This document shows, one piece after another, positions 54,368 to 63,162 of a DNA stretch of 64,000 nucleotides. The notes under the pieces are model-generated. The model was not told the origin of the DNA and searched no databases. It saw nothing but the letters and a program-made list of their open reading frames with translations. Each line of letters opens with the position of its first letter. Position 1 is the first letter of the stretch. The DNA lies in the IMG/VR virus record IMGVR_UViG_3300047392_000164, positions 7,199 to 71,198 of that record, one strand, 5' to 3'. The DNA comes from a virus. The translations under genes were made by a program, and so were the position numbers.

Positions 54368-54441
54368 TCCCTGATGGTGTAGCGGTAACACAACTGACTT
54401 TGACTCAGTCGTCCCAAGTTCGAACCTTGGTCGGGGTGCCA
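54368..54441 (+). tRNA. tRNA-Gln(UUG)
   Basis: Cloverleaf, loop CTTTGAC, CCA. Confidence 0.9.
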
Positions 54442-54531
54442 TATTGAAATACATTCAAGCAATGACATGGCTGGTAGGCATGTATCTTGCTGGACTAAAG
54501 ACCTACTACGTCTGAGTGTGTTTCAATATGG
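54439..54531 (+). repeat. CCA-pairing long hairpin, copy 1
   Basis: CCATATTGAAATACATTCA / TGAGTGTGTTTCAATATGG. Confidence 0.8.
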
Positions 54532-54537
54532 TTTAAT

Positions 54538-54611
54538 CTGGGTGTAGGATAGTGGTAGTCGACGAGTCTTGGATACTCGAGGTGCAAGTTCGATTCTTGC
54601 CTCCCAGACCA
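54538..54611 (+). tRNA. tRNA-Pro(UGG)
   Basis: Cloverleaf, loop CTTGGAT, CCA. Confidence 0.85.
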
Positions 54612-54622
54612 CAAGTTTTTTT

Positions 54623-54711
54623 GGTGTGTGTTCCCTTCAGCGGTCTGTAAAATCGTTGTCTTAAATTTGAAGGGTGGCAGACAGATGGTTCGATTCCTTC
54701 ACACACCACCA
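54623..54711 (+). ncRNA. D-armless tRNA-Tyr(GUA)-like RNA with pseudoknot
   Basis: Acceptor stem, GTA loop, T arm, ACCA; CCCTTCA pairs with TGAAGGG. Confidence 0.7.
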
Positions 54712-54716
54712 GTTTT

Positions 54717-54791
54717 GGGGACAGCTCAGGGGAGCGGCGGTGCCTTGCAAGTTCCGTGACTAGAAGGGTTCGATACCCTCGGTCTCCACCA
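54717..54791 (+). tRNA. tRNA-Ala(UGC), atypical
   Basis: G3:U70, loop CTTGCAA, short D arm, extended anticodon stem. Confidence 0.7.
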
Positions 54792-54797
54792 AGTTTT

Positions 54798-54896
54798 AGG
54801 ATGGTTGCAGCAAACAATACTTAAGGTTCGATTCCTTATTTTGCCACCAATACTCGGCAGAGTCGCTCAATGGAGAGCATCAACCCATCCTGTTGT
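54798..54896 (+). ncRNA. CAGCA-module RNA enclosing a circularly permuted tRNA
   Basis: T arm and ACCA precede the 5' acceptor strand and D arm, inside an AGGATGG/CCATCCT stem. Confidence 0.75.
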
Positions 54897-54903
54897 ATTT
54901 TAT

Positions 54904-54993
54904 GGTGTGGTCCTATAATGGTATTAGAGCGGATTGCTAATCCGTCGGCTCACGAAAGTGGGCTTCTGAGTTCGAGTCTCAGTCACACCGCCA
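54904..54993 (+). tRNA. tRNA-Ser(GCU)
   Basis: Long variable arm, loop TTGCTAA, G73. Confidence 0.9.
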
Positions 54994-54998
54994 ATTTT

Positions 54999-55098
54999 GG
55001 GAAATGTGCGTAAGGTACGCAAAACAAAAGTATTCTGTAAAGAATATTTGCAGCATCAAATAAAACACTAGTTGGTTCGATTCCAGCATTTCCCGCCA
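54999..55098 (+). ncRNA. tRNA-like RNA with the CAGCA module in place of the anticodon arm
   Basis: Acceptor, D and T arms, GCCA; GTATTCT-GTAA-AGAATAT-TTGCAGCA. Confidence 0.7.
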
Positions 55099-55104
55099 AA
55101 CAAT

Positions 55105-55180
55105 GCGTGCTTAGCTCAGTTGGTAGAGCAGAACGTTGCCAACGTTCAGGTCGCAGGTTCGAACCCTGTAGCCCGCACCA
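55105..55180 (+). tRNA. tRNA-Gly(GCC)
   Basis: Loop TTGCCAA; unusual A73. Confidence 0.85.
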
Positions 55181-55190
55181 CTTTCGGTTC

Positions 55191-55265
55191 GCGCTTATAG
55201 CTTAATGGTAAAGCAGCGAACTCATAATTCGTTGAGTCTAGGTTCAATTCCTAGTGAGCGCACCA
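55191..55265 (+). tRNA. tRNA-Ile2/Met(CAU)
   Basis: Loop CTCATAA. Confidence 0.85.
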
Positions 55266-55299
55266 ATTTATTTTTGAGGTAGAAAATGTAGGAGAAATC

Positions 55300-55860
55300 A
55301 TGTCACACGTCTTAGCTTTAGATGCATCAGGTTTGCCACGGAAGTGGATCAACTATGAAGATGCTATTACATACTTTGCAAAGGGAATGGTCGTCTGGTC
55401 ACTAGGTGAAACAGTCGCAACTTTCCATGGTGGAGTACAAAAGGACGGTGTGATGTCGATACTCGAAACACCTTCTATCATTGCTGTAAAAGGCAAAGGA
55501 TTCAATCTTGAACGCGCTGGTAAGGTTATCTTGACAAACAAGACTTTGTTTGCTCGTGACCGACATGTATGTGCTTATTGCGGTGACAAATTTGCTAACT
55601 CTCATTTGTCTCGTGACCACGTACATCCAGTATCTCGTGGTGGTGAAAACACTTGGATGAACTGTGTAACAGCATGTATCAAGTGCAACACTCAAAAAGG
55701 TGCACGCACTCCAAAGGAATTTGGACATGACCTTTTGTATGTGCCATACGAACCTAACCATTTTGAAAACATGATTCTCCAGAATAGAAACATTCTGACA
55801 GATCAAATGGAGTACTTGATGGGTGGAGTTCCAAAGCACTCACGTATTTTGATGAATTAG
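55300..55860 (+). CDS. HNH endonuclease
   Basis: RD..CAYC, DHVHP.SRGG..W.N...C..CN..K. Confidence 0.9.
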   Translation: MSHVLALDASGLPRKWINYEDAITYFAKGMVVWSLGETVATFHGGVQKDGVMSILETPSIIAVKGKGFNLERAGKVILTNKTLFARDRHVCAYCGDKFANSHLSRDHVHPVSRGGENTWMNCVTACIKCNTQKGARTPKEFGHDLLYVPYEPNHFENMILQNRNILTDQMEYLMGGVPKHSRILMN

Positions 55861-55866
55861 TAACAT

Positions 55867-55943
55867 GTACGGGTGCCCGAGCGGCCTAAGGGGACTGATT
55901 GCAAACCAGTTATTCGTGGGTTCAAATCCCACCCCGTACTCCA
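55867..55943 (+). tRNA. tRNA-Cys(GCA)
   Basis: Loop TTGCAAA, U73. Confidence 0.9.
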
Positions 55944-56130
55944 GATCATAAAATGGCTCAAAAAGCCCTATATGAATCAACAACTTATGTGACTGAAATG
56001 CACCAGAATGCATTCTAGATCACATAATGTATATCCTACCGCTTGAGTGACATACGTTCATTCTGGCAGCTGTAGTACTTTGGTACTACTTCTTAATAGT
56101 TGACAAGAACAGTAAACTATTAAGAAGTGG

Positions 56131-56159
56131 TGTACAATAAATCGAGATCGTGATATAAT
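56131..56159 (+). promoter_or_regulatory. Early-type promoter
   Basis: TGTACA-17-TATAAT. Confidence 0.75.
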
Positions 56160-56190
56160 TACTCTATCAAATCAAGAAGGAGTAGTTCAA

Positions 56191-56382
56191 ATGGCTCGTA
56201 AATCAAAAGACATCGTCACTATCGTAGACGGCGTGAAAGTTACTCAATGTGCTTATCGCGGTCCACGTCGAGGTGAAGGTACTTATGACATCAACAAGTC
56301 GAAGTATACCGTTTGGGCACAGACTGTGTCTAAGTACACACGTGGTACAAATGGTGTTCTTGGAACTGTCGAAAGAATTTAA
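56191..56382 (+). CDS. Small basic hypothetical protein
   Basis: AGGAG SD and its own promoter. Confidence 0.7.
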   Translation: MARKSKDIVTIVDGVKVTQCAYRGPRRGEGTYDINKSKYTVWAQTVSKYTRGTNGVLGTVERI

Positions 56383-56400
56383 AAATAGTTCACTTAATTG

Positions 56401-56471
56401 TGTACAACAAATCGTAGATAGTGTATAATCTCTATCTACTTGCTTATAAAGCAAATACCGTTCTTTAAAAA
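56401..56471 (+). promoter_or_regulatory. Promoter, hairpin and boxA-like site of the second tRNA operon
   Basis: TGTACA-17-TATAAT; TGCTTATAAAGCA; GTTCTTTAAAAA. Confidence 0.7.
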
Positions 56472-56573
56472 TTTATAGGTGAACTTTCTAAGTCTTCGGT
56501 CGAATACGAAGCTTAAGTTCACCGTTTTTAAACTTGTTAGAAGCATGACATGTCGTGAGACATCGCTTCTTAT

Positions 56574-56648
56574 GCTGGGTTCGTCTATCGGTTAGGACAC
56601 ATGCCTTTCACGTATGTAAGACGGGTTCGATTCCCGTACCCAGTACCA
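56574..56648 (+). tRNA. tRNA-Glu(UUC)
   Basis: Loop CTTTCAC. Confidence 0.9.
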
Positions 56649-56710
56649 TTTTTAAACACACTGCCGAACAATCAAATTGCTTAGCAGATGAGTAGTGTGT
56701 TTAAAAATGG
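56646..56710 (+). repeat. CCA-pairing long hairpin, copy 2
   Basis: CCATTTTTAAACACACT / AGTGTGTTTAAAAATGG. Confidence 0.8.
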
Positions 56711-56714
56711 TAAT

Positions 56715-56790
56715 GCTCTGTTAGCTCAATTGGGAGAGCGCGACACTGTCACTGTCGAGGTAAGGGGATCGAAACCCCTACGGGGCGCCA
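56715..56790 (+). tRNA. tRNA-Asp(GUC)
   Basis: Loop CTGTCAC, G73. Confidence 0.9.
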
Positions 56791-56799
56791 AGTTTTTAT

Positions 56800-56875
56800 G
56801 CAGATATAGCTCAGACGGTAGAGCAGTAGCCTGAAAAGTTATGTGTCGCTGGTTCGATTCCAGCTATCTGCACCA
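56800..56875 (+). tRNA. tRNA-Phe(GAA)
   Basis: Loop CTGAAAA. Confidence 0.9.
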
Positions 56876-56882
56876 AGTTTAT

Positions 56883-56957
56883 GCCCTTGTAGCTCAGAGG
56901 AAGAGCAAACGCTTGATAAGCGTTAGGTCGACATTTCGAAATTGTCCAAGGGTACCA
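56883..56957 (+). tRNA. tRNA-Ile(GAU)
   Basis: Loop TTGATAA. Confidence 0.9.
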
Positions 56958-56962
56958 GTTTT

Positions 56963-57020
56963 AGGATTCATTCAGCAAATAAAAATCTTTTTGGAATAAA
57001 GAAAAAGCGAATCCTGTTGT
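56963..57020 (+). ncRNA. CAGCA-module RNA enclosing a lone anticodon stem-loop (GGA)
   Basis: AGGATTC/GAATCCT; TCTTT-TTGGAAT-AAAGA. Confidence 0.7.
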
Positions 57021-57024
57021 TTTT

Positions 57025-57109
57025 GGAGGTGCCGCCGTAATGGTATGGCAGGAGACTGTAAATCTTCCGACTTATGTCACAATTGGTTCGATCCCAATCA
57101 CCTCCACCA
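57025..57109 (+). tRNA. tRNA-Tyr(GUA)
   Basis: Loop CTGTAAA, variable arm. Confidence 0.9.
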
Positions 57110-57117
57110 AGTTTTAT

Positions 57118-57192
57118 GGCCTAATCATATAGTGGTTATTATACCTGCCTGTCTAGTAGGATATCGGGGTTCGATTCCCCGTTAGGTCGCCA
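57118..57192 (+). tRNA. tRNA-Asp(GUC), second copy with U37
   Basis: Loop CTGTCTA, G73. Confidence 0.8.
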
Positions 57193-57198
57193 GTTTAT

Positions 57199-57274
57199 TC
57201 CCTAGTAGCACAGCGGTAGTTGCACTTGACTGTTAATCAAGGTGTCCGTGGTTCGATCCCACGCTGGGGAGCCA
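57199..57274 (+). tRNA. tRNA-Asn(GUU)
   Basis: Loop CTGTTAA. Confidence 0.9.
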
Positions 57275-57360
57275 GAGCAAATAGAGATCTTGTTTTGATG
57301 CATGGTCTCTCAACGGTTGTCAATGACGATGGGTGATAGTTAGGAATTGACAAGAATTAT

Positions 57361-57438
57361 TGTGGTAGAGCAAGCATGGTGTAGGCGCTTCGCTGTTAAC
57401 GAAGAATGAGCTAGGTTCGATCCCTAGTACCACAGCCA
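57361..57438 (+). tRNA. tRNA-Asn(GUU), second copy with atypical D arm
   Basis: Loop CTGTTAA, G73. Confidence 0.8.
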
Positions 57439-57444
57439 AGTTTT

Positions 57445-57510
57445 AGGATAGGTTCAGCAAATAAAAGCATTCAACTTGTAATTGAAAAAAGCTAAAAACT
57501 ATCCTGTTGT
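57445..57510 (+). ncRNA. CAGCA-module RNA enclosing a lone anticodon stem-loop (UGU)
   Basis: AGGATAG/CTATCCT; TTCAA-CTTGTAA-TTGAA. Confidence 0.7.
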
Positions 57511-57514
57511 TTAT

Positions 57515-57591
57515 GGGGATGTGACGCAATTGGTAGACGTACTGGTCTTAGAAACCAGGTCCTGTGGGTTCGAGTCCCACCATCCCCACCA
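57515..57591 (+). tRNA. tRNA-Leu(UAG), short variable arm
   Basis: Loop CTTAGAA. Confidence 0.85.
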
Positions 57592-57594
57592 AGT

Positions 57595-57745
57595 TTTGTA
57601 AGTGTAGATGTTGTGAAAGTAGGAACTCGAAATCCCTGTGAGTTGTCCGTACGACAACCTTGTAGCAACTAATACTACGTACCTCTAACCCTAACGTATA
57701 CTGGGCGAAATGGTTCCGAATGAGAGAGGCGGAACTACTTACAAA
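57595..57745 (+). ncRNA. Unclassified structured RNA
   Basis: Closing stem TTTGTAAGT/ACTTACAAA and internal hairpins. Confidence 0.55.
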
Positions 57746-57798
57746 TTCAATCTCGCCTTGACTTATGGCGTACAATGTGATAAGTAGTAAGTCATTTT

Positions 57799-57873
57799 AG
57801 ATTGTAAACTTTGATGGTGAAGTCCGGCCTCTTAAGCCGAGAGAACCCAGTTCGAGTCTGGGACGATCTACCA
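57799..57873 (+). tRNA. tRNA-Lys(CUU)
   Basis: Loop CTCTTAA. Confidence 0.85.
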
Positions 57874-57978
57874 TATTGAAATACATTTGAATGCTTAGGC
57901 CAAGCAGATGTAGCGGATTACAGCCCGATAGCTTTCGGGTAGGCAGGTTCAATTCCTGCGAAGTGTATTTCAATATGG
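57871..57978 (+). repeat. CCA-pairing long hairpin, copy 3, enclosing tRNA-like arms
   Basis: CCATATTGAAATACATTT / AAGTGTATTTCAATATGG; internal GCAGG-TTCAATT-CCTGC. Confidence 0.8.
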
Positions 57979-58051
57979 GCTGTTAGTGATAATGGGAGCA
58001 CGAGGCCTTTGCACGGCTTAGGTGGGAGTTCGATCCTCCCACGGTCCACCA
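57977..58051 (+). tRNA. tRNA-Ala(UGC)
   Basis: G3:U70, loop TTTGCAC. Confidence 0.85.
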
Positions 58052-58057
58052 AAATTT

Positions 58058-58184
58058 GGAGATGTGATGTAATGGTAGCATAGCATAGCAAAAAGTCAAT
58101 TCTGTAAAGAATTGTTTCCGCATACCTATAGCTCTAACTCTGTAAAAGTTCTTGTCCGCGGTTCGAATCCCGGCATCTCCACCA
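58058..58184 (+). ncRNA. tRNA-Tyr(GUA)-like RNA with an inserted CAGCA-type module
   Basis: Cloverleaf with an insert of about 50 nt containing CAATTCT-GTAA-AGAATTG-TTTCCGCA. Confidence 0.7.
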
Positions 58185-58362
58185 AGTATACTAAGACAAT
58201 GTTTAGTAGTATGAGTAGACGGAAACCGACCCTTGCGAGACTGCGGGGGCTTCACGAAAGTGACGATGCGAAAGTAAGTCGGTCCAGTAGGGGTATGAAA
58301 AACATTGTTAGCGGTCCAGTTGCCAAAGGACAAAAGTTATAATTGACATAACGCCGTGTATT
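58185..58362 (+). ncRNA. Unclassified structured RNA
   Basis: Nested stems ACAATGTTT/AAACATTGT and ACCGAC/GTCGGT, GAAA tetraloops. Confidence 0.6.
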
Positions 58363-58376
58363 CCTTTAAGAATTTT

Positions 58377-58451
58377 GCGCTCGTAGTATAATGGAGAATA
58401 CTCTAGGCTACGAACTTAGTAATGGTGGTTCGATTCCATCCGGGCGCACCA
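58377..58451 (+). tRNA. tRNA-Arg(ACG)
   Basis: Loop CTACGAA. Confidence 0.9.
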
Positions 58452-58456
58452 ATCAT

Positions 58457-58531
58457 GCCGAATTAGCACAGCGGTAGTGCAATCGCCTTGTAAGCGATAG
58501 GTCGTCTGTTCGAACCAGACATTCGGCACCA
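58457..58531 (+). tRNA. tRNA-Thr(UGU)
   Basis: Loop CTTGTAA. Confidence 0.9.
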
Positions 58532-58534
58532 GAA

Positions 58535-58676
58535 TTAGTCGGAGTAATTAACCGAAAAGTAAGTAGTAGACCTCCATGGCACCGCGGATGGTCTTTGCAG
58601 ATAAGTCCTGCGTCAGGTGTCCGAAAGGGTAGCACTTGAGAAACACTGGGGTAAGAGTCCCAAGTTTGTGCCAGCA
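58535..58676 (+). ncRNA. Unclassified pseudoknotted RNA
   Basis: Loop TGGCAC is complementary to distal GTGCCA; four hairpins. Confidence 0.55.
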
Positions 58677-58682
58677 ATTTAC

Positions 58683-58757
58683 ATCGCATTCGACTTCAGG
58701 TGAGGTCATCACCCTTTCAAGGTGACTAGACGGGATCGTTACCCGTATGCGATACCA
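58683..58757 (+). tRNA. tRNA-Glu(UUC), second copy
   Basis: Loop CTTTCAA, T loop ATCGTTA. Confidence 0.85.
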
Positions 58758-58762
58758 TATAA

Positions 58763-58849
58763 GCCTAGGTGCAGGGAATTGGTAGACCGGCAACGTTGAG
58801 AACGTTGTGACTGAAATATGTGGGAGTTCGAATCTCCCTCTAGGCACCA
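58763..58849 (+). tRNA. tRNA-Leu(GAG)
   Basis: Loop TTGAGAA. Confidence 0.8.
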
Positions 58850-58855
58850 AAATTA

Positions 58856-58928
58856 CGCGGGTAGTGCGGAAACACTCCAGTCTCATAAGCTCGGAGCATC
58901 GGCAGTTCGAATCTGTCACCCGCATCCA
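58856..58928 (+). tRNA. Initiator-like tRNA-Met(CAU), atypical
   Basis: C1:A72 mismatch, loop CTCATAA, reduced D arm, bulged anticodon stem. Confidence 0.65.
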
Positions 58929-58932
58929 ATAT

Positions 58933-59007
58933 GCGTTAGTAGCTAAATGGCATAGCAGGAGCCTCTAAAACTCTGAGCAGTGGGTTCGATTCCCATCTAA
59001 CGCACCA
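58933..59007 (+). tRNA. Amber suppressor tRNA (CUA)
   Basis: Cloverleaf, loop CTCTAAA, ACCA. Confidence 0.85.
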
Positions 59008-59008
59008 T

Positions 59009-59083
59009 GGATGTATAGCACAGCGGTAGTGCATCTCCTTCATACGGAGCAGGTCAGTAGTTCGAATCTACTTACATCCACCA
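59009..59083 (+). tRNA. tRNA-Met(CAU), elongator
   Basis: Loop TTCATAC. Confidence 0.88.
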
Positions 59084-59095
59084 TATATAATTCAT

Positions 59096-59172
59096 CGGAG
59101 TATAGCACAGCCTGGTAGTGCGCTTGCTTTGGGAGCAAGAGGTCGCAGGTTCGATCCCTGCTACTCCGACCA
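59096..59172 (+). tRNA. tRNA-Pro(UGG), second copy
   Basis: Loop TTTGGGA. Confidence 0.9.
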
Positions 59173-59190
59173 TTTTTAACTAAGGACATT

Positions 59191-59457
59191 ATGATTGTTA
59201 CACCATTGAAAAAGAACGTGCTTGTTGCAGAAAACAAGCGTGAAAACACAACTGAAAGCGGTATCGTTATTCAAGGTGCAGAAGGTTTAGGCGAATCAAA
59301 GTCTGGAAAAGTCCTTGCAATTGGATCTGAAGTTACCGATGTTAAAGTTGGTGATACGATCTATTTGATGTGGAACAAAGCAAAGCTTGTTAAGATTGAT
59401 GGCGCACAGCGTGTGATCATTTCTCAAGACGACATCGTAGCAGTCTTAGAAGATTAA
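59191..59457 (+). CDS. GroES-like co-chaperonin
   Basis: PL...VLV, TESGIV, G.VLAIG, VKVGD. Confidence 0.88.
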   Translation: MIVTPLKKNVLVAENKRENTTESGIVIQGAEGLGESKSGKVLAIGSEVTDVKVGDTIYLMWNKAKLVKIDGAQRVIISQDDIVAVLED

Positions 59458-59463
59458 TTGTTT

Positions 59464-59537
59464 GCTCTTTTAGTATAATGGCATTACACTACATTGGTAA
59501 TGTAGAAACACTGGATCGTAACCAGTAAGGAGCACCA
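59464..59537 (+). tRNA. tRNA-Thr(GGU)
   Basis: Loop TTGGTAA. Confidence 0.85.
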
Positions 59538-59546
59538 GGAGTTCAT

Positions 59547-59726
59547 ATGAGTAAAATGAGTGATGGCGGCAAAGGTAGTGGTCGTAGACCCAACGATGTC
59601 GATGATAAAAAGATAGAAGACAATTGGAATAACATCTTTGGTATGTCTCCACTTGAACGTAAGAAACGTGAAGAAGCACTGCAAAAGCTTGCAGAAGCTA
59701 ATAAAGAATTAGGTTTAGAATACTAA
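59547..59726 (+). CDS. Small hypothetical protein (59 aa)
   Basis: GGAG SD; GGKGS.RRP...NW..IF; not in the track. Confidence 0.65.
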   Translation: MSKMSDGGKGSGRRPNDVDDKKIEDNWNNIFGMSPLERKKREEALQKLAEANKELGLEY

Positions 59727-59730
59727 TAAT

Positions 59731-59808
59731 GCGGACATAGCGCAATAGGTAGGAGGCAACAGACTTAAAATCTGTACAGTGCGGGTTCGAATCCCGCTGT
59801 CCGTACCA
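59731..59808 (+). tRNA. tRNA-Leu(UAA), short variable arm
   Basis: Loop CTTAAAA. Confidence 0.85.
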
Positions 59809-59813
59809 AATAT

Positions 59814-59887
59814 ATCTCGGTAGTGTAATGGCAGCATACCAGTCTCCAAAACTGTTGGTCGGGGTTCGAGTCCCTGCCGGGATGCCA
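59814..59887 (+). tRNA. tRNA-Trp(CCA)
   Basis: Loop CTCCAAA, G73. Confidence 0.9.
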
Positions 59888-59964
59888 AGTTGTGTTGCAA
59901 CTAATCAGGGGTGCTTGCGTTCTCGCCCTGTTAAAAACAAAAATATGACGCAGCCAAGTTTAAT

Positions 59965-60056
59965 GGAAAGTAATGCAGCGGGGTTGGTCCTGCGACCAGC
60001 CTTGAAAACTGGGTTCTCCTAACGGGGATGGGGTTCGACTCCTCTGCTTTCCGCCA
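59965..60056 (+). tRNA. tRNA-Ser(UGA), 8/4 fold
   Basis: 8-bp acceptor GGAAAGTA/TGCTTTCC, 4-bp T stem, loop CTTGAAA. Confidence 0.8.
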
Positions 60057-60059
60057 GAT

Positions 60060-60207
60060 TTTGAGATAGACGTAGAGATTGAGTCCCTTGTATTCTAGTG
60101 CCCTATTCTTGAGCATGACACACCAGTAGAATTGTACAAGGTTAGCATAAACTCTCTCATACGAGACAACCCAGCGAGTCCTTAAGAAAGATAGTTGGTC
60201 TCTCAAA
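60060..60207 (+). ncRNA. Unclassified structured RNA
   Basis: TTTGAGA/TCTCAAA closure, CCTTGTA/TACAAGG arm, TTCTTGAG complementary to CTTAAGAA. Confidence 0.55.
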
Positions 60208-60215
60208 CCCTATAT

Positions 60216-60303
60216 AGTGAGTTGGCAGAGTGGCTTAATGCACCACCTTGGAAAGGTGACGATCCGAAAGGGTCCGAGAGTTCGAATCTCTCACTCACTG
60301 CCA
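60216..60303 (+). tRNA. tRNA-Ser(GGA)
   Basis: Loop TTGGAAA, long variable arm. Confidence 0.9.
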
Positions 60304-60307
60304 TTAT

Positions 60308-60383
60308 GCGGGTATAGCTCAGTTGGTAGAGCACTTCCTTGCCAAGGAAGATGTCGAGAGTTCGAGTCTCTTTGCCCGCTCCA
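60308..60383 (+). tRNA. tRNA-Gly(GCC), second copy
   Basis: Loop TTGCCAA, U73. Confidence 0.9.
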
Positions 60384-60397
60384 TTTTAGGATACATT

Positions 60398-60544
60398 ATG
60401 AATGAATATGGAGTACCTTTACATGCATGCAACGGTCATCGTCATGATGAACATTATTGGGCGTGGATGAAGTGGGTTATAGAAAATTGTATATGTTTAG
60501 GCTCAGATGGCGAAAAAGTATTTTACAAAAAGCCTATACATTAA
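60398..60544 (+). CDS. Small hypothetical protein (48 aa)
   Basis: AGGA SD after the tRNA. Confidence 0.45.
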   Translation: MNEYGVPLHACNGHRHDEHYWAWMKWVIENCICLGSDGEKVFYKKPIH

Positions 60545-60569
60545 TTCGTCAATGTGGTATAATTAGTCT

Positions 60570-60845
60570 ATGATAAACGAAAAAGAACATGAAATCATGT
60601 CGATCACTCAAGAAGAGTGTGCAGAGGTCATTCAAGCTATAAGCAAGATTAACCGATTTGGTTTTGATGGTAGACATCCTGAAAAAACATACAACAATCG
60701 TGAACACCTTGAAGAGGAAGTTGGCGATGTATTAGCAATGATTGATTTGTTGCTAGAAAACGACATTGTGTCTTGGGCTAATGTGAACAAGGCACGTAGA
60801 AAGAAATTTGAGAAGCTCCAGCAATGGAGCACTGTAATGAATTAA
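60570..60845 (+). CDS. MazG-like pyrophosphatase
   Basis: EECAEVIQA.SK..RFG, LEEEVGDV; ATG 6 nt after TATAAT. Confidence 0.8.
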   Translation: MINEKEHEIMSITQEECAEVIQAISKINRFGFDGRHPEKTYNNREHLEEEVGDVLAMIDLLLENDIVSWANVNKARRKKFEKLQQWSTVMN

Positions 60846-60846
60846 T

Positions 60847-60920
60847 GCGGGATTGGTATAGGGGTTGTGCCCTAGTCTTCCAAACTAGAGAGACCAGTTC
60901 GAGCCTGGTATCCCGCTCCA
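60847..60920 (+). tRNA. tRNA-Gly(UCC)
   Basis: Loop CTTCCAA, U73. Confidence 0.9.
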
Positions 60921-60946
60921 TTTAACTTTAACTAGGAGAACGAAGT

Positions 60947-61078
60947 ATGAAATCGAAACCGATCGCTAAAGAACGTAACTGCTTCGTTCGTTTAGCGTTA
61001 TTCCGAAAAGCAGGGTCGCACCGTAAAAGCAATAAGGCTTTACGTAAAGCGGCAAACCAATCTAATCATTGGGCCTGA
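60947..61078 (+). CDS. Small basic protein (43 aa) whose stop codon lies inside tRNA-Lys
   Basis: AGGAG SD; MKSKPIAKERNCFVRLALFRKAGSHRKSNKALRKAANQSNHWA*; not in the track. Confidence 0.7.
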   Translation: MKSKPIAKERNCFVRLALFRKAGSHRKSNKALRKAANQSNHWA

Positions 61079-61144
61079 AACTTTAAGGTGAAGTAACTGG
61101 CTTTTAACCAGTAAAATTCGGATCGTTACCGAACGGGCCTACCA
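61071..61144 (+). tRNA. tRNA-Lys(UUU)
   Basis: Loop CTTTTAA, T loop ATCGTTA. Confidence 0.88.
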
Positions 61145-61254
61145 TATAAAAACATACTCCAGGTTGGGTTGAATTCGCGGTTCAACTATTTGGGTATCAT
61201 GGACTAGATAATTACTAGCACCGATACTAAGATACGTAGTGTGTTTCTATATGG
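61142..61254 (+). repeat. CCA-pairing long hairpin, copy 4
   Basis: CCATATAAAAACATACT / AGTGTGTTTCTATATGG. Confidence 0.75.
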
Positions 61255-61258
61255 TTAT

Positions 61259-61333
61259 GGTGGCTATGGTGTAATGGAAGCACCCAACTCTGTGAAAGTT
61301 GTAGCACGGGATCGTTACCCGTTAGTCACCCCA
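61259..61333 (+). tRNA. tRNA-His(GUG)
   Basis: G-1:C73, loop CTGTGAA. Confidence 0.9.
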
Positions 61334-61340
61334 ATATTAT

Positions 61341-61415
61341 GCCTCGTTAACTCAGTGGTAGAGTGCTTCCTTTACACGGAAGAGGTCGGCAGTTCGAAAC
61401 TGTCACGAGGTACCA
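61341..61415 (+). tRNA. tRNA-Val(UAC)
   Basis: Loop TTTACAC. Confidence 0.9.
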
Positions 61416-61519
61416 ACTTTAAAAGGAACTTCTATGAAAGCGCTTGCCTAGATTTTACACCCTCCGTAATTTCTTTATTGTCTTTATCATGCAATCAATT
61501 AATCAATAAGGAAATCTAT

Positions 61520-61888
61520 ATGTGTATCGAATTAAAAATCAAATCTAAACATCTCGCCCTTGAGCCTTCTATCATTCGTTCAGAAGAAGAAAAGCTTAAG
61601 AAACAAATGAAGTATCATCGTAGTGATGATAAAGAAAGTTCCTTTACATTGGAACGTAAGTTAAACAACTTAGTCAATCATCGTAAGTGGAATGTTCGTA
61701 ACGAAGCACGAGCAACACACCTTGCACGAGCATATATTGCTGGTAAAGCATATGCTTCTGTTGAGAAATCACGTAACGATGAAGGCTTATTTAGAAATTA
61801 CATTGTTATACGTATTGTAGCAATGGTACAACGATATGGAGATCGTAAGGTCACTAGCGATATGATTCGCGAGTGGGCTAAGGTCTAA
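61520..61888 (+). CDS. Conserved phage hypothetical protein
   Basis: AAGGA SD; HR...VR.EARATHLA.AY..GK.Y..VE. Confidence 0.75.
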   Translation: MCIELKIKSKHLALEPSIIRSEEEKLKKQMKYHRSDDKESSFTLERKLNNLVNHRKWNVRNEARATHLARAYIAGKAYASVEKSRNDEGLFRNYIVIRIVAMVQRYGDRKVTSDMIREWAKV

Positions 61889-61895
61889 GAAATAT

Positions 61896-61999
61896 AGGAT
61901 AGTTTCAGCAAACCCAACGCAACGCCAATGGATGGCAATTTGACTTCTAATCAAACCTTGTGGGTTCAATTCCCACTGCAAAACAACTATCCTGATGAA
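61896..61999 (+). ncRNA. CAGCA-module RNA enclosing an acceptor-less tRNA-Arg(UCU) body
   Basis: AGGATAGTT/AACTATCCT; D arm, TTTGA-CTTCTAA-TCAAA, T arm. Confidence 0.75.
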
Positions 62000-62002
62000 T
62001 AT

Positions 62003-62076
62003 GTCTCATTAGCTCAAAGGTAGAGCACTGCTTTGACATAGCAGATACGGCGGATCGTTACCGTCATGAGATACCA
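62003..62076 (+). tRNA. tRNA-Val(GAC)
   Basis: Loop TTGACAT. Confidence 0.88.
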
Positions 62077-62090
62077 ACTGAAAGCTTATT

Positions 62091-62726
62091 ATGTTAACAT
62101 GTATTCAAGTGCCGCAGTTCATGCATCCACCACAAAAGTTCATTGATAAAGCTCGACAGCTTACTAAAGAACTTGCTGATGGAACATGTGAACAAGAACC
62201 AATCAATTCTGGTCTCTTCAATAAAGGTTATACAGAACGTACTTACATTCGACATGGTGTAGAAACACCAACTCGTGTAGGTAGAATGTATTCTCTTGGA
62301 GATGACTTCATTCAATGGGTGAAGGATTACCTACATCCACATCCAGATGAAACTGGATTGAATGTTCTCAAGCCATTTGACTGTCCTATCATGGGGCCAC
62401 ATATTGACACAAAGCGTAAGTACGTACTGTTCTACCCAATTGCATTAGGTGGCGACAATGTACAAACAGTCTTCTATAAAGAACCCGGTCATACGATTGA
62501 TCGTTCACATTCACTTGGACCAAGTGGTGTAGGTTATTATGTAAGAGACTATAAAGATTTAGAAGCTATTGATCAGATCAACATGCAAATTGGCGTGTGG
62601 TATTTGATGAATCCTAAGGTTATCCATAGCGTAGAGAACGTACATGGTCCGCGATCCATGATTACTGTAAGCTTACCCGACATGGATCAATTTCCTTGGA
62701 AGAATAGGATTCCAGCTCAAGAATAA
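62091..62726 (+). CDS. Putative 2OG-Fe(II) oxygenase-fold protein
   Basis: PHID...IHSV...R. Confidence 0.6.
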   Translation: MLTCIQVPQFMHPPQKFIDKARQLTKELADGTCEQEPINSGLFNKGYTERTYIRHGVETPTRVGRMYSLGDDFIQWVKDYLHPHPDETGLNVLKPFDCPIMGPHIDTKRKYVLFYPIALGGDNVQTVFYKEPGHTIDRSHSLGPSGVGYYVRDYKDLEAIDQINMQIGVWYLMNPKVIHSVENVHGPRSMITVSLPDMDQFPWKNRIPAQE

Positions 62727-62727
62727 T

Positions 62728-62804
62728 GGGGATGTGACGCAATTGGTAGACGTGCTTGATTCAAAATCAAGATTCTGTGGGTTCGAGTCCCACCTTCCCC
62801 ACCA
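62728..62804 (+). tRNA. tRNA-Leu(CAA), short variable arm
   Basis: Loop TTCAAAA; body nearly identical to Leu(UAG) at 57515. Confidence 0.88.
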
Positions 62805-62809
62805 AAAAT

Positions 62810-62832
62810 AAAAGCACCTTCGGGTGCTTTTG
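62810..62832 (+). terminator. Intrinsic terminator ending the tRNA array
   Basis: AAAAGCACC-TTCG-GGTGCTTTT. Confidence 0.9.
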
Positions 62833-62845
62833 TCCGTTCTAGGTG

Positions 62846-62853
62846 TATAAATA
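62846..62853 (+). promoter_or_regulatory. T4-type late promoter
   Basis: TATAAATA after the terminator. Confidence 0.75.
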
Positions 62854-62913
62854 AAATTAGGTAATGCAACGTTACCTAATAAGATCAAATAATAAAAATA
62901 ACAAAGGAATCTT

Positions 62914-63162
62914 ATGAGAAAAACTACTAAGACGATTACGGAAATTACCCATGAACATGGCGTCATTTCCTTCGAACTTCCCGCGTACGAAGCTCTTCTA
63001 GACCTAGCGTCTACAGATGGGTGCCGTGACGAGCACAGAGACATCATTGTTGAAAGAACAAAGACTATCTCTGAGGAAATCGAAGGAGAGCCATTGAAAG
63101 AGGATCACTTACCGGCAATCGTAGCAGGCACTCCTGCAGCTACAGCTCTCGCTGCAGCTTAA
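62914..63162 (+). CDS. Hypothetical protein
   Basis: AGGA SD. Confidence 0.65.
   Translation: MRKTTKTITEITHEHGVISFELPAYEALLDLASTDGCRDEHRDIIVERTKTISEEIEGEPLKEDHLPAIVAGTPAATALAAA

What the first reader, a model, noticed from the sequence alone, without database searches (positions are those of the whole stretch)
60932..61144. Small basic ORF whose stop codon is inside tRNA-Lys: non-stop mRNA made by RNase P, ArfA-like logic
Seen: a strong AGGAG SD and a 43-aa Lys/Arg-rich ORF (RNCFVRLALFRKAGSHRKSNKALRK). Its TGA (61076-78) lies within tRNA-Lys(UUU), which begins at 61071. Known: the ribosome-rescue factors ArfA and BrfA are small basic proteins made from non-stop mRNAs, so tmRNA destroys them unless trans-translation fails. 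Inference: 5' maturation of the tRNA removes the stop codon, giving a phage rescue factor that accumulates only when tmRNA is overloaded or cleaved. The resemblance to ArfA is in size, charge and gene logic only; I cannot see homology.
Basis: partly seen in the sequence, partly recalled or inferred. Interest (0 to 1): 0.78.

Follow-up and report, generated by a model that had tools for sequence, protein, structure and literature searches.

The report
Stop-less basic peptide gene at tRNA-Lys
A freshwater T4-like phage carries a real, conserved gene for a tiny basic peptide that runs without a stop codon into a lysine tRNA, and its relatives lose their stop through hairpins or terminators instead, the way bacteria build back-up factors that free stuck ribosomes; the function itself is untested.

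Summary
Observation confirmed. A 43-codon ORF (60947-61078, AGGAG 8 nt upstream) has its TGA inside tRNA-Lys(UUU), which starts at 61071.

It is a real gene. pN/pS is 0.19, and 686 protein clusters match it.

Of 81 loci (window plus 80 viral relatives), 73 have no stop before tRNA-Lys(UUU). The stop falls at nine different places in the tRNA. The tRNA upstream of the ORF is of 13 kinds. Other ORFs abutting tRNAs in the same loci end before the tRNA in 71 of 91 junctions.

Relatives use two other devices at the same point:
- 30 of 40 viral loci with a stop of their own carry a 16-27-bp hairpin whose 5' arm lies in the ORF, as in E. coli arfA.
- About 12 of 40 chromosomal Burkholderiales homologs carry an intrinsic terminator before the stop, as in brfA.

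No homology to ArfA was detected, and nothing in the PDB matched. Twenty-six of the 40 chromosomal homologs and two phage isolates keep ordinary stops.

The rescue function is inferred, not shown. I found no paper describing this. The scan noted the same thing earlier on another genome (e1-5676178).

The parts
60847..60920 (+). tRNA-Gly(UCC) just upstream. Its 3' processing would set the 5' end of the small message, leaving a 26-nt leader before the ATG.
   Evidence: ARAGORN; Rfam tRNA 49.2 bits. In 49 of 77 related loci with an upstream tRNA, that tRNA ends 73-89 nt before the RKAG codons. The upstream tRNA is of 13 different kinds.
60934..60938 (+). Shine-Dalgarno AGGAG, 8 nt before the ATG
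   Evidence: Read directly. An SD-like motif lies within 20 nt upstream of the ATG in 125 of 132 family loci.
60947..61078 (+). ORF of 43 codons on the unprocessed transcript (MKSKPIAKERNCFVRLALFRKAGSHRKSNKALRKAANQSNHWA)
   Evidence: the ORF listing. 122 metagenome homologs. 686 representative clusters at E<=0.001. pN/pS 0.19 with third positions most variable.
60974..61045 (+). Conserved core, residues R10-R33 (RNxFVxLALFRKAGSHRKSNKALR). Invariant residues: R10 N11 A17 R20 G23 H25 K27 K30 R33.
   Evidence: Alignments A1 and A6. AlphaFold2 predicts helices 12-24 and 27-42, mean pLDDT 75.5.
60947..61070 (+). Coding part left after a cut at the tRNA 5' end: 40 codons plus 1 base, no stop (predicted non-stop message)
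   Evidence: Inference from the coordinates and the established role of RNase P in tRNA 5' maturation. In 87 tRNA-Lys-class loci the number of complete codons before the tRNA is 32-46, most often 40 (30 loci) or 41 (20 loci).
61071..61144 (+). tRNA-Lys(UUU), proposed to act as the stop-removing device
   Evidence: ARAGORN; Rfam 44.8 bits; cloverleaf in the minimum-energy fold of 60921-61150.
61076..61078 (+). TGA stop of the ORF, at tRNA positions 6-8
   Evidence: In relatives the last base of the stop lies 8, 10, 13, 16, 21, 23, 26, 30 or 80 nt into the tRNA, in all three frames.

Best explanation
The ORF is a real gene for a peptide of about 40 aa that is very basic. It belongs to a large unnamed family found in phage tRNA arrays and on Burkholderiales chromosomes. 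The gene is built so that its message loses the stop codon. Here the stop lies inside tRNA-Lys(UUU), so RNase P cutting at the tRNA 5' end leaves a message that ends one base after codon 40. In relatives the same point is occupied by a long RNase III-type hairpin or by an intrinsic terminator that precedes the stop. As with ArfA and BrfA, ribosomes would stall at the 3' end of this message. tmRNA-SmpB would tag the peptide for degradation, and untagged peptide would accumulate only when trans-translation is saturated or disabled, for instance during phage takeover or a host attack on mRNA or tRNA. The free peptide most likely binds ribosomes with an empty mRNA channel through its basic RKAGSHRKSNK segment and promotes release, as a back-up rescue factor. 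Shown by comparison: the gene is real, it is linked to tRNA-Lys, no stop precedes an RNA-processing structure, and three different devices occur. Inferred: cleavage in vivo, tagging, ribosome binding and release-factor recruitment. My confidence in the stop-less gene logic alone is about 0.75. My confidence in the logic plus a rescue function is 0.5.
For: Real gene:
- Across 61 unique cores, third-position entropy is 27.3 against 11.6 and 7.2, and pN/pS is 0.19.
- GC-rich homologs keep the peptide with other codons.

Stop-less junction:
- 73 of 81 loci have no stop before tRNA-Lys(UUU), and the stop lies at nine different offsets.
- In the wider set of 138 non-identical viral loci, 89 run into tRNA-Lys(UUU) and 5 into another tRNA.
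- Control: other ORFs of at least 60 aa abutting tRNAs end before the tRNA in 71 of 91 junctions. The MazG/tRNA-Gly(UCC) junction flips, 3 before and 3 inside.
- The upstream neighbour varies over 13 tRNA kinds. The downstream one does not.

Second device:
- Of 40 viral loci with a stop of their own or no called tRNA, 30 have a 16-27-bp stem starting 14-21 nt after the core with its 5' arm in the ORF. The stop is in the 3' arm in 18, in the loop or insert in 6, and after the hairpin in 6. Shuffles give at most 15 bp.
- At least six unrelated stem sequences occur.
- Fold z-scores are -6.9 to -8.4, against -4.2 for the E. coli arfA hairpin.

Third device:
- 14 of 40 distinct chromosomal Burkholderiales homologs were flagged with a hairpin plus U-run before the stop, and about 12 are clear.
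- One was read and folded directly: L319, -23.3 kcal/mol, z -4.5.

Build:
- A hydrophobic stretch is followed by a basic Gly/His segment. ArfA and BrfA are made from stop-less messages and bind the empty mRNA channel with a basic tail (review PMC8012679, passages read).
Against: - No homology to ArfA was detected. Pfam PF03889 gave no match, and hhalign gave probability 0.1%. A profile search of the PDB gave 0 matches at E<=10.
- The stop-less build is not universal. ACP17 and V45v66 have no tRNA or terminator at the ORF end and an ordinary stop. So do 26 of 40 chromosomal homologs and about 10 of 134 assessable viral loci. One of these (L179) has its own TAA abutting a tRNA-Lys-like sequence.
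- Overlap of a stop with a tRNA is not unique to this gene: 20 of 91 control junctions show it.
- On unprocessed transcripts the ORF does have a stop. Contigs from two RNA libraries bridge the ORF/tRNA junction: X7 at 60869-61144 and X15 at 60971-61105. They may be precursor RNA or carried-over DNA.
- Presence of the family in Burkholiales genomes is not significantly complementary to ArfB: 19 of 41 carriers against 127 of 210 non-carriers have it, Fisher p=0.12.
- The loci are related by descent, so the counts are not independent events.
Confidence: 0.5

Rival explanations
1. It is an ordinary small basic phage protein, for example an RNA- or tRNA-binding or anti-defence peptide. Its overlap with the tRNA is a by-product of tight packing. 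It is translated to the in-tRNA stop on unprocessed transcripts, and the hairpins and terminators of relatives are ordinary processing or termination signals that happen to overlap a dispensable tail.
For: Genes in this array end 1-7 nt from tRNAs: GroES-like 59191-59457, MazG-like 60570-60845 and 62091-62726. 20 of 91 control junctions also have the stop inside the tRNA. tRNAs carry ready-made stops, and offset +10 is used by 37 of 72 loci. Many homologs keep an ordinary stop. RNA-library contigs bridge the junction.
Against: None of the 73 tRNA-Lys-adjacent loci has its own stop before the tRNA, despite nine different offsets and varied tails. In contrast, 71 of 91 control junctions do. Packing does not explain why the ORF tail is laid into the 5' arm of 16-27-bp hairpins of at least six unrelated sequences. 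Nor does it explain why chromosomal copies in roomy genomes place a terminator before the stop. Spacers of more than 100 nt exist in the same array, for example 61145-61259.
Confidence: 0.2
2. The gene has the same stop-less logic but another activity. The peptide occupies the empty mRNA channel and blocks tmRNA-SmpB, or otherwise tunes trans-translation or ribosome hibernation, instead of recruiting a release factor. It would be a switch that turns on once some peptide escapes tagging.
For: It is predicted to be two basic helices. Basic helical tails of SmpB and ArfB bind the same channel, and an SmpB-tail peptide inhibits tmRNA binding (review PMC8012679, passages). Nothing in my data distinguishes release from blockage.
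Against: No sequence likeness to SmpB or any PDB chain. All three known factors made from or resembling such small basic peptides (ArfA, BrfA, ArfT) promote release. Chromosomal copies in bacteria would be odd for an inhibitor of an essential pathway.
Confidence: 0.15
3. It is a cis-acting leader or arrest peptide. Translation of the Lys-rich ORF up to the tRNA senses Lys-tRNA supply, or holds a ribosome at the junction, and so controls maturation or stability of tRNA-Lys.
For: The ORF is constantly linked to a lysine tRNA: 89 of 94 tRNA-class loci. It has 7-9 Lys codons, with AAA 530 and AAG 332 over 132 loci. The conserved core would sit in the exit tunnel when the ribosome reaches the junction (inference).
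Against: Homologs with the same invariant residues stand alone without any tRNA, in ACP17, V45v66 and 41 of 251 Burkholderiales genomes. Residues other than Lys are the invariant ones. Hairpin- and terminator-class members are followed by other tRNAs or none.
Confidence: 0.08
4. It is not a gene: a conserved RNA leader of tRNA-Lys that happens to be open.
For: It always lies directly 5' of the tRNA. There is no Pfam, NCBIfam or PHROG match.
Against: The codon-position pattern and pN/pS of 0.19 indicate coding. The peptide is conserved across different GC content. An SD motif is present in 125 of 132 loci. No Rfam family covers the ORF. The fold z-score of the whole region is only -2.0, and its paired part there is mainly the tRNA cloverleaf.
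Confidence: 0.01

Closest known systems
ArfA (YhdL, Pfam PF03889), RF2-dependent alternative ribosome-rescue factor of E. coli
   Same: It is a small basic protein. The ORF's 3' part holds an RNA structure that removes the stop: a hairpin cut by RNase III or acting as a terminator (PMC8012679, passage; arfA hairpin folded here). The tail beyond the cut is poorly conserved. A hydrophobic stretch is followed by a basic Gly-containing segment. The only stretch hhalign aligned is ALFRK with PLFRQ, which is not significant.
   Different: No homology was detected. The window's device is a tRNA, which implies RNase P and is not described for any Arf in the papers I read. The peptide is shorter, about 40 aa against 52-55. 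It is phage-borne and tied to tRNA-Lys. It has RKAGSH with invariant G and H in place of KGKGS...KH.
BrfA (YqkK) of Bacillus subtilis
   Same: An intrinsic terminator lies before the stop codon, so the active protein comes from a non-stop message regulated by trans-translation (PMC8012679, passage). About 12 of 40 chromosomal Burkholderiales homologs of this family have that arrangement.
   Different: No match of the family profile to any PDB chain at E<=10. The review cites a BrfA structure, 6SZS, and I did not check separately that this chain is in the tool's copy. The taxa differ. The window itself uses a tRNA, not a terminator.
ArfT of Francisella tularensis
   Same: It is about 40 aa and has a basic C-terminal motif, given in the paper as KKGGSTNKK, which is loosely like RKAGSHRKSNK (PMC6299226, passages).
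   Different: The paper reports that arfT is not regulated by truncation. I held no ArfT sequence to align. The wider ArfT family is described as a repeated charged helix of stress proteins (PMC6514570, passage). No such Pfam family matched here.
tRNA punctuation of animal mitochondrial transcripts (recalled, from no call)
   Same: Excision of a tRNA defines the 3' end of the upstream message, which may then lack a complete stop.
   Different: There the stop is completed by polyadenylation. Here the loss of the stop would be the point.

Membership tests
ArfA (PF03889) | Sequence match to the ArfA profile | tested here: not met
   hmmscan of the ORF against Pfam at E<=10 gave no ArfA match. PF03889 against the whole 71-kb record gave 0 candidates. 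hhalign of A1 against E. coli ArfA and against a 14-sequence, enterobacterial-only ArfA alignment gave probability 0.1%.
ArfA (PF03889) | Message loses its stop through an RNA structure inside the ORF | tested here: met
   This holds at the level of gene architecture only. The stop lies inside tRNA-Lys here and in 73 of 81 loci. Relatives use hairpins or terminators before the stop. Cleavage itself was not tested.
ArfA (PF03889) | KGKGS and KH motifs in a basic tail that fills the empty mRNA channel | tested here: inconclusive
   The family has RKAGSHRKSNK with invariant G23, H25, K27 and K30. The make-up is similar but the order differs. Binding cannot be tested here.
ArfA (PF03889) | Recruits RF2 to non-stop ribosomes; synthetic lethality with ssrA | not testable with these tools
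   Needs biochemistry or genetics.
BrfA | Sequence relationship | tested here: not met
   The profile of A1 against all PDB chains gave 0 matches at E<=10. I did not hold a BrfA sequence for a direct comparison.
BrfA | Intrinsic terminator before the stop codon | tested here: not met
   Not present in the window, where a tRNA takes that place. It is met in about 12 of 40 chromosomal homologs. The consensus scan tool did not list the L319 site.
ArfT | Sequence relationship to Francisella ArfT | not tested
   No ArfT sequence was held. The comparison rests only on the motif quoted in PMC6299226.
tRNA (RF00005) | Cloverleaf match for the downstream element | tested here: met
   ARAGORN calls tRNA-Lys(UUU) at 61071-61144. 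Rfam gives 44.8 bits against a gathering score of 29.

The most novel reading that the evidence does not exclude
This is a further, unrelated class of alternative ribosome-rescue factor, carried by phage tRNA arrays and by Burkholderiales chromosomes, where ArfA is rare. Its synthesis is gated by trans-translation through three interchangeable stop-removing devices. One of them, excision of a tRNA by RNase P, has not been described for such factors. In phages it travels with tRNA-Lys as a two-part cassette, a replacement tRNA plus a ribosome releaser, against host attacks that stall ribosomes at lysine codons.
Probability: 0.35. Interest if true: 0.92.

Novelty: new variant of a known kind. 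Interest (0 to 1): 0.82.

Why it matters
The review of rescue pathways states that further small RF-recruiting factors probably exist but cannot be found by sequence similarity (PMC8012679, passage). Here the gene logic itself, a conserved small basic ORF with no stop before an RNA-processing structure, picks out a candidate family of at least 686 clusters.

If the reading is right, several things follow:
- Phages would be shown to carry their own tmRNA-gated rescue or tmRNA-sensing factor.
- RNase P processing of a tRNA would be added to the known ways of making a programmed non-stop message.
- There would be a candidate for the alternative factor in Burkholderiales. ArfA was found in 3 of 251 genomes sampled, and a published survey found it in 37 of 1,000 Betaproteobacteria (PMC11633108, table passage).
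- The 20 of 91 other gene-tRNA overlaps in these phages would be worth a look as sources of non-stop messages.

The idea is directly testable with a 230-nt cassette in E. coli K-12, or with the isolate Synechococcus phage BUCT-ZZ01, which has the same arrangement.

Tried and rejected
- **Homology to known factors.** Pfam, NCBIfam and PHROGs scans of the ORF and two isolate homologs gave nothing relevant. Pfam scans of 25 and 27 distant members gave only stray hits. The PDB profile search gave 0 matches. hhalign against ArfA gave nothing. My ArfA alignment was shallow, because the 120 proteins listed are all at least 80% identical to E. coli ArfA.
- **ESM Atlas.** It returned only unnamed viral clusters. 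A DUF7230 lead at score 0.89 (26% of one cluster) was not confirmed by Pfam.
- **Complex prediction.** The peptide (A1, residues 1-40) with RF2_ECOLI gave no verdict, score 0.00. I draw nothing from it.
- **Structure.** The AlphaFold2 model is two helices. I did not search folds with it, since a 43-aa helical hairpin would match anything.
- **Phyletic complementarity.** ArfA is too rare to test: 3 of 251 genomes, 0 of 5 carriers. The ArfB comparison is not significant, p=0.12. That NF006718 is the ArfB model is recalled. The tool showed only PRK09256, 140 positions, over its cut-off in E. coli and Caulobacter among the controls. The tallies of 251 genomes include G028, flagged unpublished, as one non-carrier. 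No other claim rests on it.
- **RNA evidence.** All runs were available only as contigs. The parts of 59000-63000 without cover mean nothing. No molecule ends could be read. Runs X1 and X2 may be the source sample and were left out.
- **Terminator scan tool.** It listed nothing at the L319 and L338 sites. I rely on my own script, which uses the same stated criteria, and on a direct read and fold. The scan probably extends the stem into the A and T tracts and so uses up the T run.
- **Leader-peptide and non-coding readings.** Considered and ranked low, see the rivals.
- **Not done.** I built no tree to count independent origins of the devices, because a 40-aa core would resolve poorly. I did not check at the DNA level that GC-rich members run into tRNA-Lys(CUU); that is read only from the peptide tails. 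Supplementary files of papers were closed. The ArfT homolog tables of PMC6514570 and PMC6299226 could bear on whether this family was listed there.
- **Searches behind 'not in print'.**, plus passages of PMC7824862.

Full report
**The observation.** The window comes from a 71-kb IMG/VR virus record. The phage is T4-like: its family-B DNA polymerase is 46-52% identical to those of cyanomyoviruses and of 'Phage C48C1'. Positions 54368-62804 hold 36 tRNA genes. Between tRNA-Gly(UCC) at 60847-60920 and tRNA-Lys(UUU) at 61071-61144 lie AGGAG (60934-60938), an ATG at 60947, and a 43-codon ORF whose TGA is at 61076-61078. Rfam confirms the tRNA start at 61071 with 44.8 bits, and finds no other RNA family over the ORF. 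A cut at the tRNA 5' end leaves 40 codons plus one base and no stop.

**It is a real gene of a large unnamed family.** No Pfam, NCBIfam or PHROG family matches. The word-indexed search found 122 homologs of 41-75 aa. A profile search of 1.84 billion representatives found 686 clusters at E<=0.001, of which 108 reach 1e-10. The core RNxFVxLALFRKAGSHRKSNKALR has nine invariant residues. Over 61 unique DNA cores all 24 third positions vary. Summed entropy by codon position is 11.6, 7.2 and 27.3, and pN/pS is 0.19. GC-rich relatives keep the peptide with different codons. An SD-like motif precedes the ATG in 125 of 132 loci. AlphaFold2 predicts two helices at 12-24 and 27-42, mean pLDDT 75.5.

**The stop-less junction is conserved.** The C-terminal tails of the homologs are variable and read like translated tRNA. 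In 80 viral-contig loci plus the window:
- 72 have the stop inside tRNA-Lys(UUU).
- One (L081) reads through the whole tRNA.
- Two loci end before the stop.
- Six have a stop of their own.

The last base of the stop lies 8, 10, 13, 16, 21, 23, 26, 30 or 80 nt into the tRNA, in all three frames. So what is kept is the absence of an earlier stop, not a particular stop. The tRNA upstream of the ORF is of 13 kinds, while the one downstream is constant. The ORF and tRNA-Lys therefore travel as a unit. The cultured Synechococcus phage BUCT-ZZ01 has the same arrangement, with an annotated 48-aa CDS running 21 nt into tRNA-Lys(UUU).

**Controls.** In the same loci, 91 other junctions of an ORF of at least 60 aa with a tRNA were found. 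The stop lies before the tRNA in 71, mostly 0-7 nt before it, and inside the tRNA in 20. Overlap as such is therefore not rare in these phages, which tempers the finding. The MazG-like gene next to tRNA-Gly(UCC) flips between the two states, 3 and 3. The family gene never has its own stop next to tRNA-Lys in that set (0 of 73). Fisher's test gives p=2e-28, but the loci share ancestry and are not independent.

**Two further devices at the same place.**
- *Scope.* Scans with three subfamily alignments raised the set to 138 non-identical viral loci. Of these, 89 run into tRNA-Lys(UUU) and 5 into another tRNA. Another 40 have their own stop or no called tRNA downstream. Two are cut off and 2 were not located.
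- *Hairpins.* Of the 40, 30 carry a stem of 16-27 bp with at most one mismatch. The maximum in 60 shuffles is 15, with mean 11.4. The stem starts 14-21 nt after the core, the same place where the tRNA starts in the main subfamily. The 5' arm lies in the ORF, and the stop is in the 3' arm (18), in the loop or insert (6), or after the hairpin (6). At least six unrelated stem sequences occur. Folds give z -6.9 to -8.4. The E. coli arfA hairpin, fetched by its annotation, gives z -4.2. The stems are long and AU-rich, and the examples read (L093, L074) have no U-run after them. That is the form expected of RNase III substrates. This is inference.
- *Overall tally.* 124 of 134 assessable viral loci have no stop before a tRNA or the 5' arm of such a hairpin.
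- *Exceptions.* L179 has its own TAA abutting a tRNA-Lys-like sequence. L070, L183, L286 and L205 end ordinarily. L210 has a 19-bp stem with the stop in its 5' arm or loop, so I count it as ambiguous.

**Chromosomal homologs with terminators inside the ORF.** A scan of one genome per species found 13 loci, all Burkholderiales. Two sit in tRNA arrays and read through tRNA-Lys(UUU); the others are single genes. In Thiomonas the gene lies upstream of LemA. A core-only profile (A6) hit 41 of 251 sampled Burkholderiales genomes. Among 40 distinct chromosomal loci my script flagged 14 with a GC-rich hairpin plus U-run before the stop. About 12 are clear, L334 is weak and L304 is spurious. The other 26 have their own stop first. 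In the 13 loci kept after dropping L304, the other two frames hold a stop in 6 and 7 respectively over the same interval. L319 was read and folded directly. The consensus scan tool did not list it. This is the BrfA arrangement (PMC8012679, passage).

**Comparison with known factors.** ArfA's ORF holds a stem-loop that ends transcription or is cut by RNase III. Most ArfA is therefore made from a non-stop message and destroyed by trans-translation unless that pathway fails, and the lost tail is poorly conserved (PMC8012679). BrfA uses a terminator before the stop. ArfA and BrfA share only a KH motif in a basic tail that fills the mRNA channel. ArfT is about 40 aa with a KKGGSTNKK motif and is not regulated by truncation (PMC6299226). 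The present family shares the logic and the general build but not the sequence. It is not a member of ArfA. It may work like it.

**What speaks against the reading or is missing.**
- No direct evidence exists for cleavage, tagging or ribosome binding.
- Ordinary stops are kept in ACP17 and V45v66 and in 26 of 40 chromosomal copies.
- RNA-library contigs bridge the junction, so unprocessed precursor, or DNA, exists.
- Complementarity with ArfB is not significant.
- Why the tRNA is always a lysine tRNA is unexplained (note 4).

**Proposed mechanism.**
1. The array is transcribed as a precursor. This is inferred; the bridging contigs are compatible with it.
2. 3' processing of tRNA-Gly and RNase P cleavage at 61070/61071 release a message of about 150 nt with an SD and 40 codons. 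The architecture is shown; the cleavage is inferred from the established role of RNase P.
3. Ribosomes stall at its end with one base in the A site, which is a substrate for tmRNA and for Arf-type factors (review).
4. The peptide is tagged and degraded, unless trans-translation is saturated (inferred).
5. Free peptide acts on non-stop ribosomes (inferred).

**Novelty.** Six full-text searches and passages of three reviews and surveys gave no description of a phage-borne Arf-like factor or of a tRNA used to remove a stop codon. The scan itself noted the same thing on another genome (e1-5676178). I reached the hairpin and terminator result independently and tested it here.

Noticed in passing
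window 61919-61980 (+): Rfam tRNA match of 31.6 bits that ARAGORN does not call, just upstream of tRNA-Val(GAC) at 62003. It may be a degenerate or unusual tRNA.
   Followed up: no
window 58933-59007 (+): ARAGORN calls a tRNA with anticodon CTA ('tRNA-Pyl'), that is, an amber-reading tRNA within the array.
   Followed up: no
L004-L083, e.g. L016 2622-2909, L015 1046-1588, L038 861-1529: 20 of 91 other ORF-tRNA junctions in related phages also have the stop codon inside the tRNA. The MazG-like gene flips between a stop 1-2 nt before tRNA-Gly(UCC) and a stop 8 nt inside it. Non-stop messages may be common in these arrays.
   Followed up: partly
L101, L103-L105, L108, L112, L113, L118, L122, L123, L125 (about 1560-1700): Stems of 19-27 bp in the ORF tail close inserts of 44-92 nt, some with a T-arm-like GGTTCGAAAC (L103, L113). 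These may relate to the tRNA-part modules another first-stage note describes for this window.
   Followed up: no
L001 1429-1632 (Acidovorax phage ACP17): The homolog is unannotated and has no ATG, GTG or TTG before the conserved core. It overlaps the start of the next gene by 25 nt, so its start is unclear.
   Followed up: partly
L082/L083, L268, L282: The ORF runs into 5' halves of tRNA-Lys-like sequence that ARAGORN does not call. These may be decayed, split or intron-bearing tRNAs.
   Followed up: no
L303 and L297 (Thiomonas chromosomes): The chromosomal copy lies between membrane-protein genes and a LemA gene, with GIDE next in one and a Uma2 nuclease gene inserted in the other.
   Followed up: partly
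window 55300-55860 (+): An HNH endonuclease gene sits inside the tRNA array. GroES-like (59191-59457) and MazG-like (60570-60845) genes end 1-7 nt from tRNAs.
   Followed up: no
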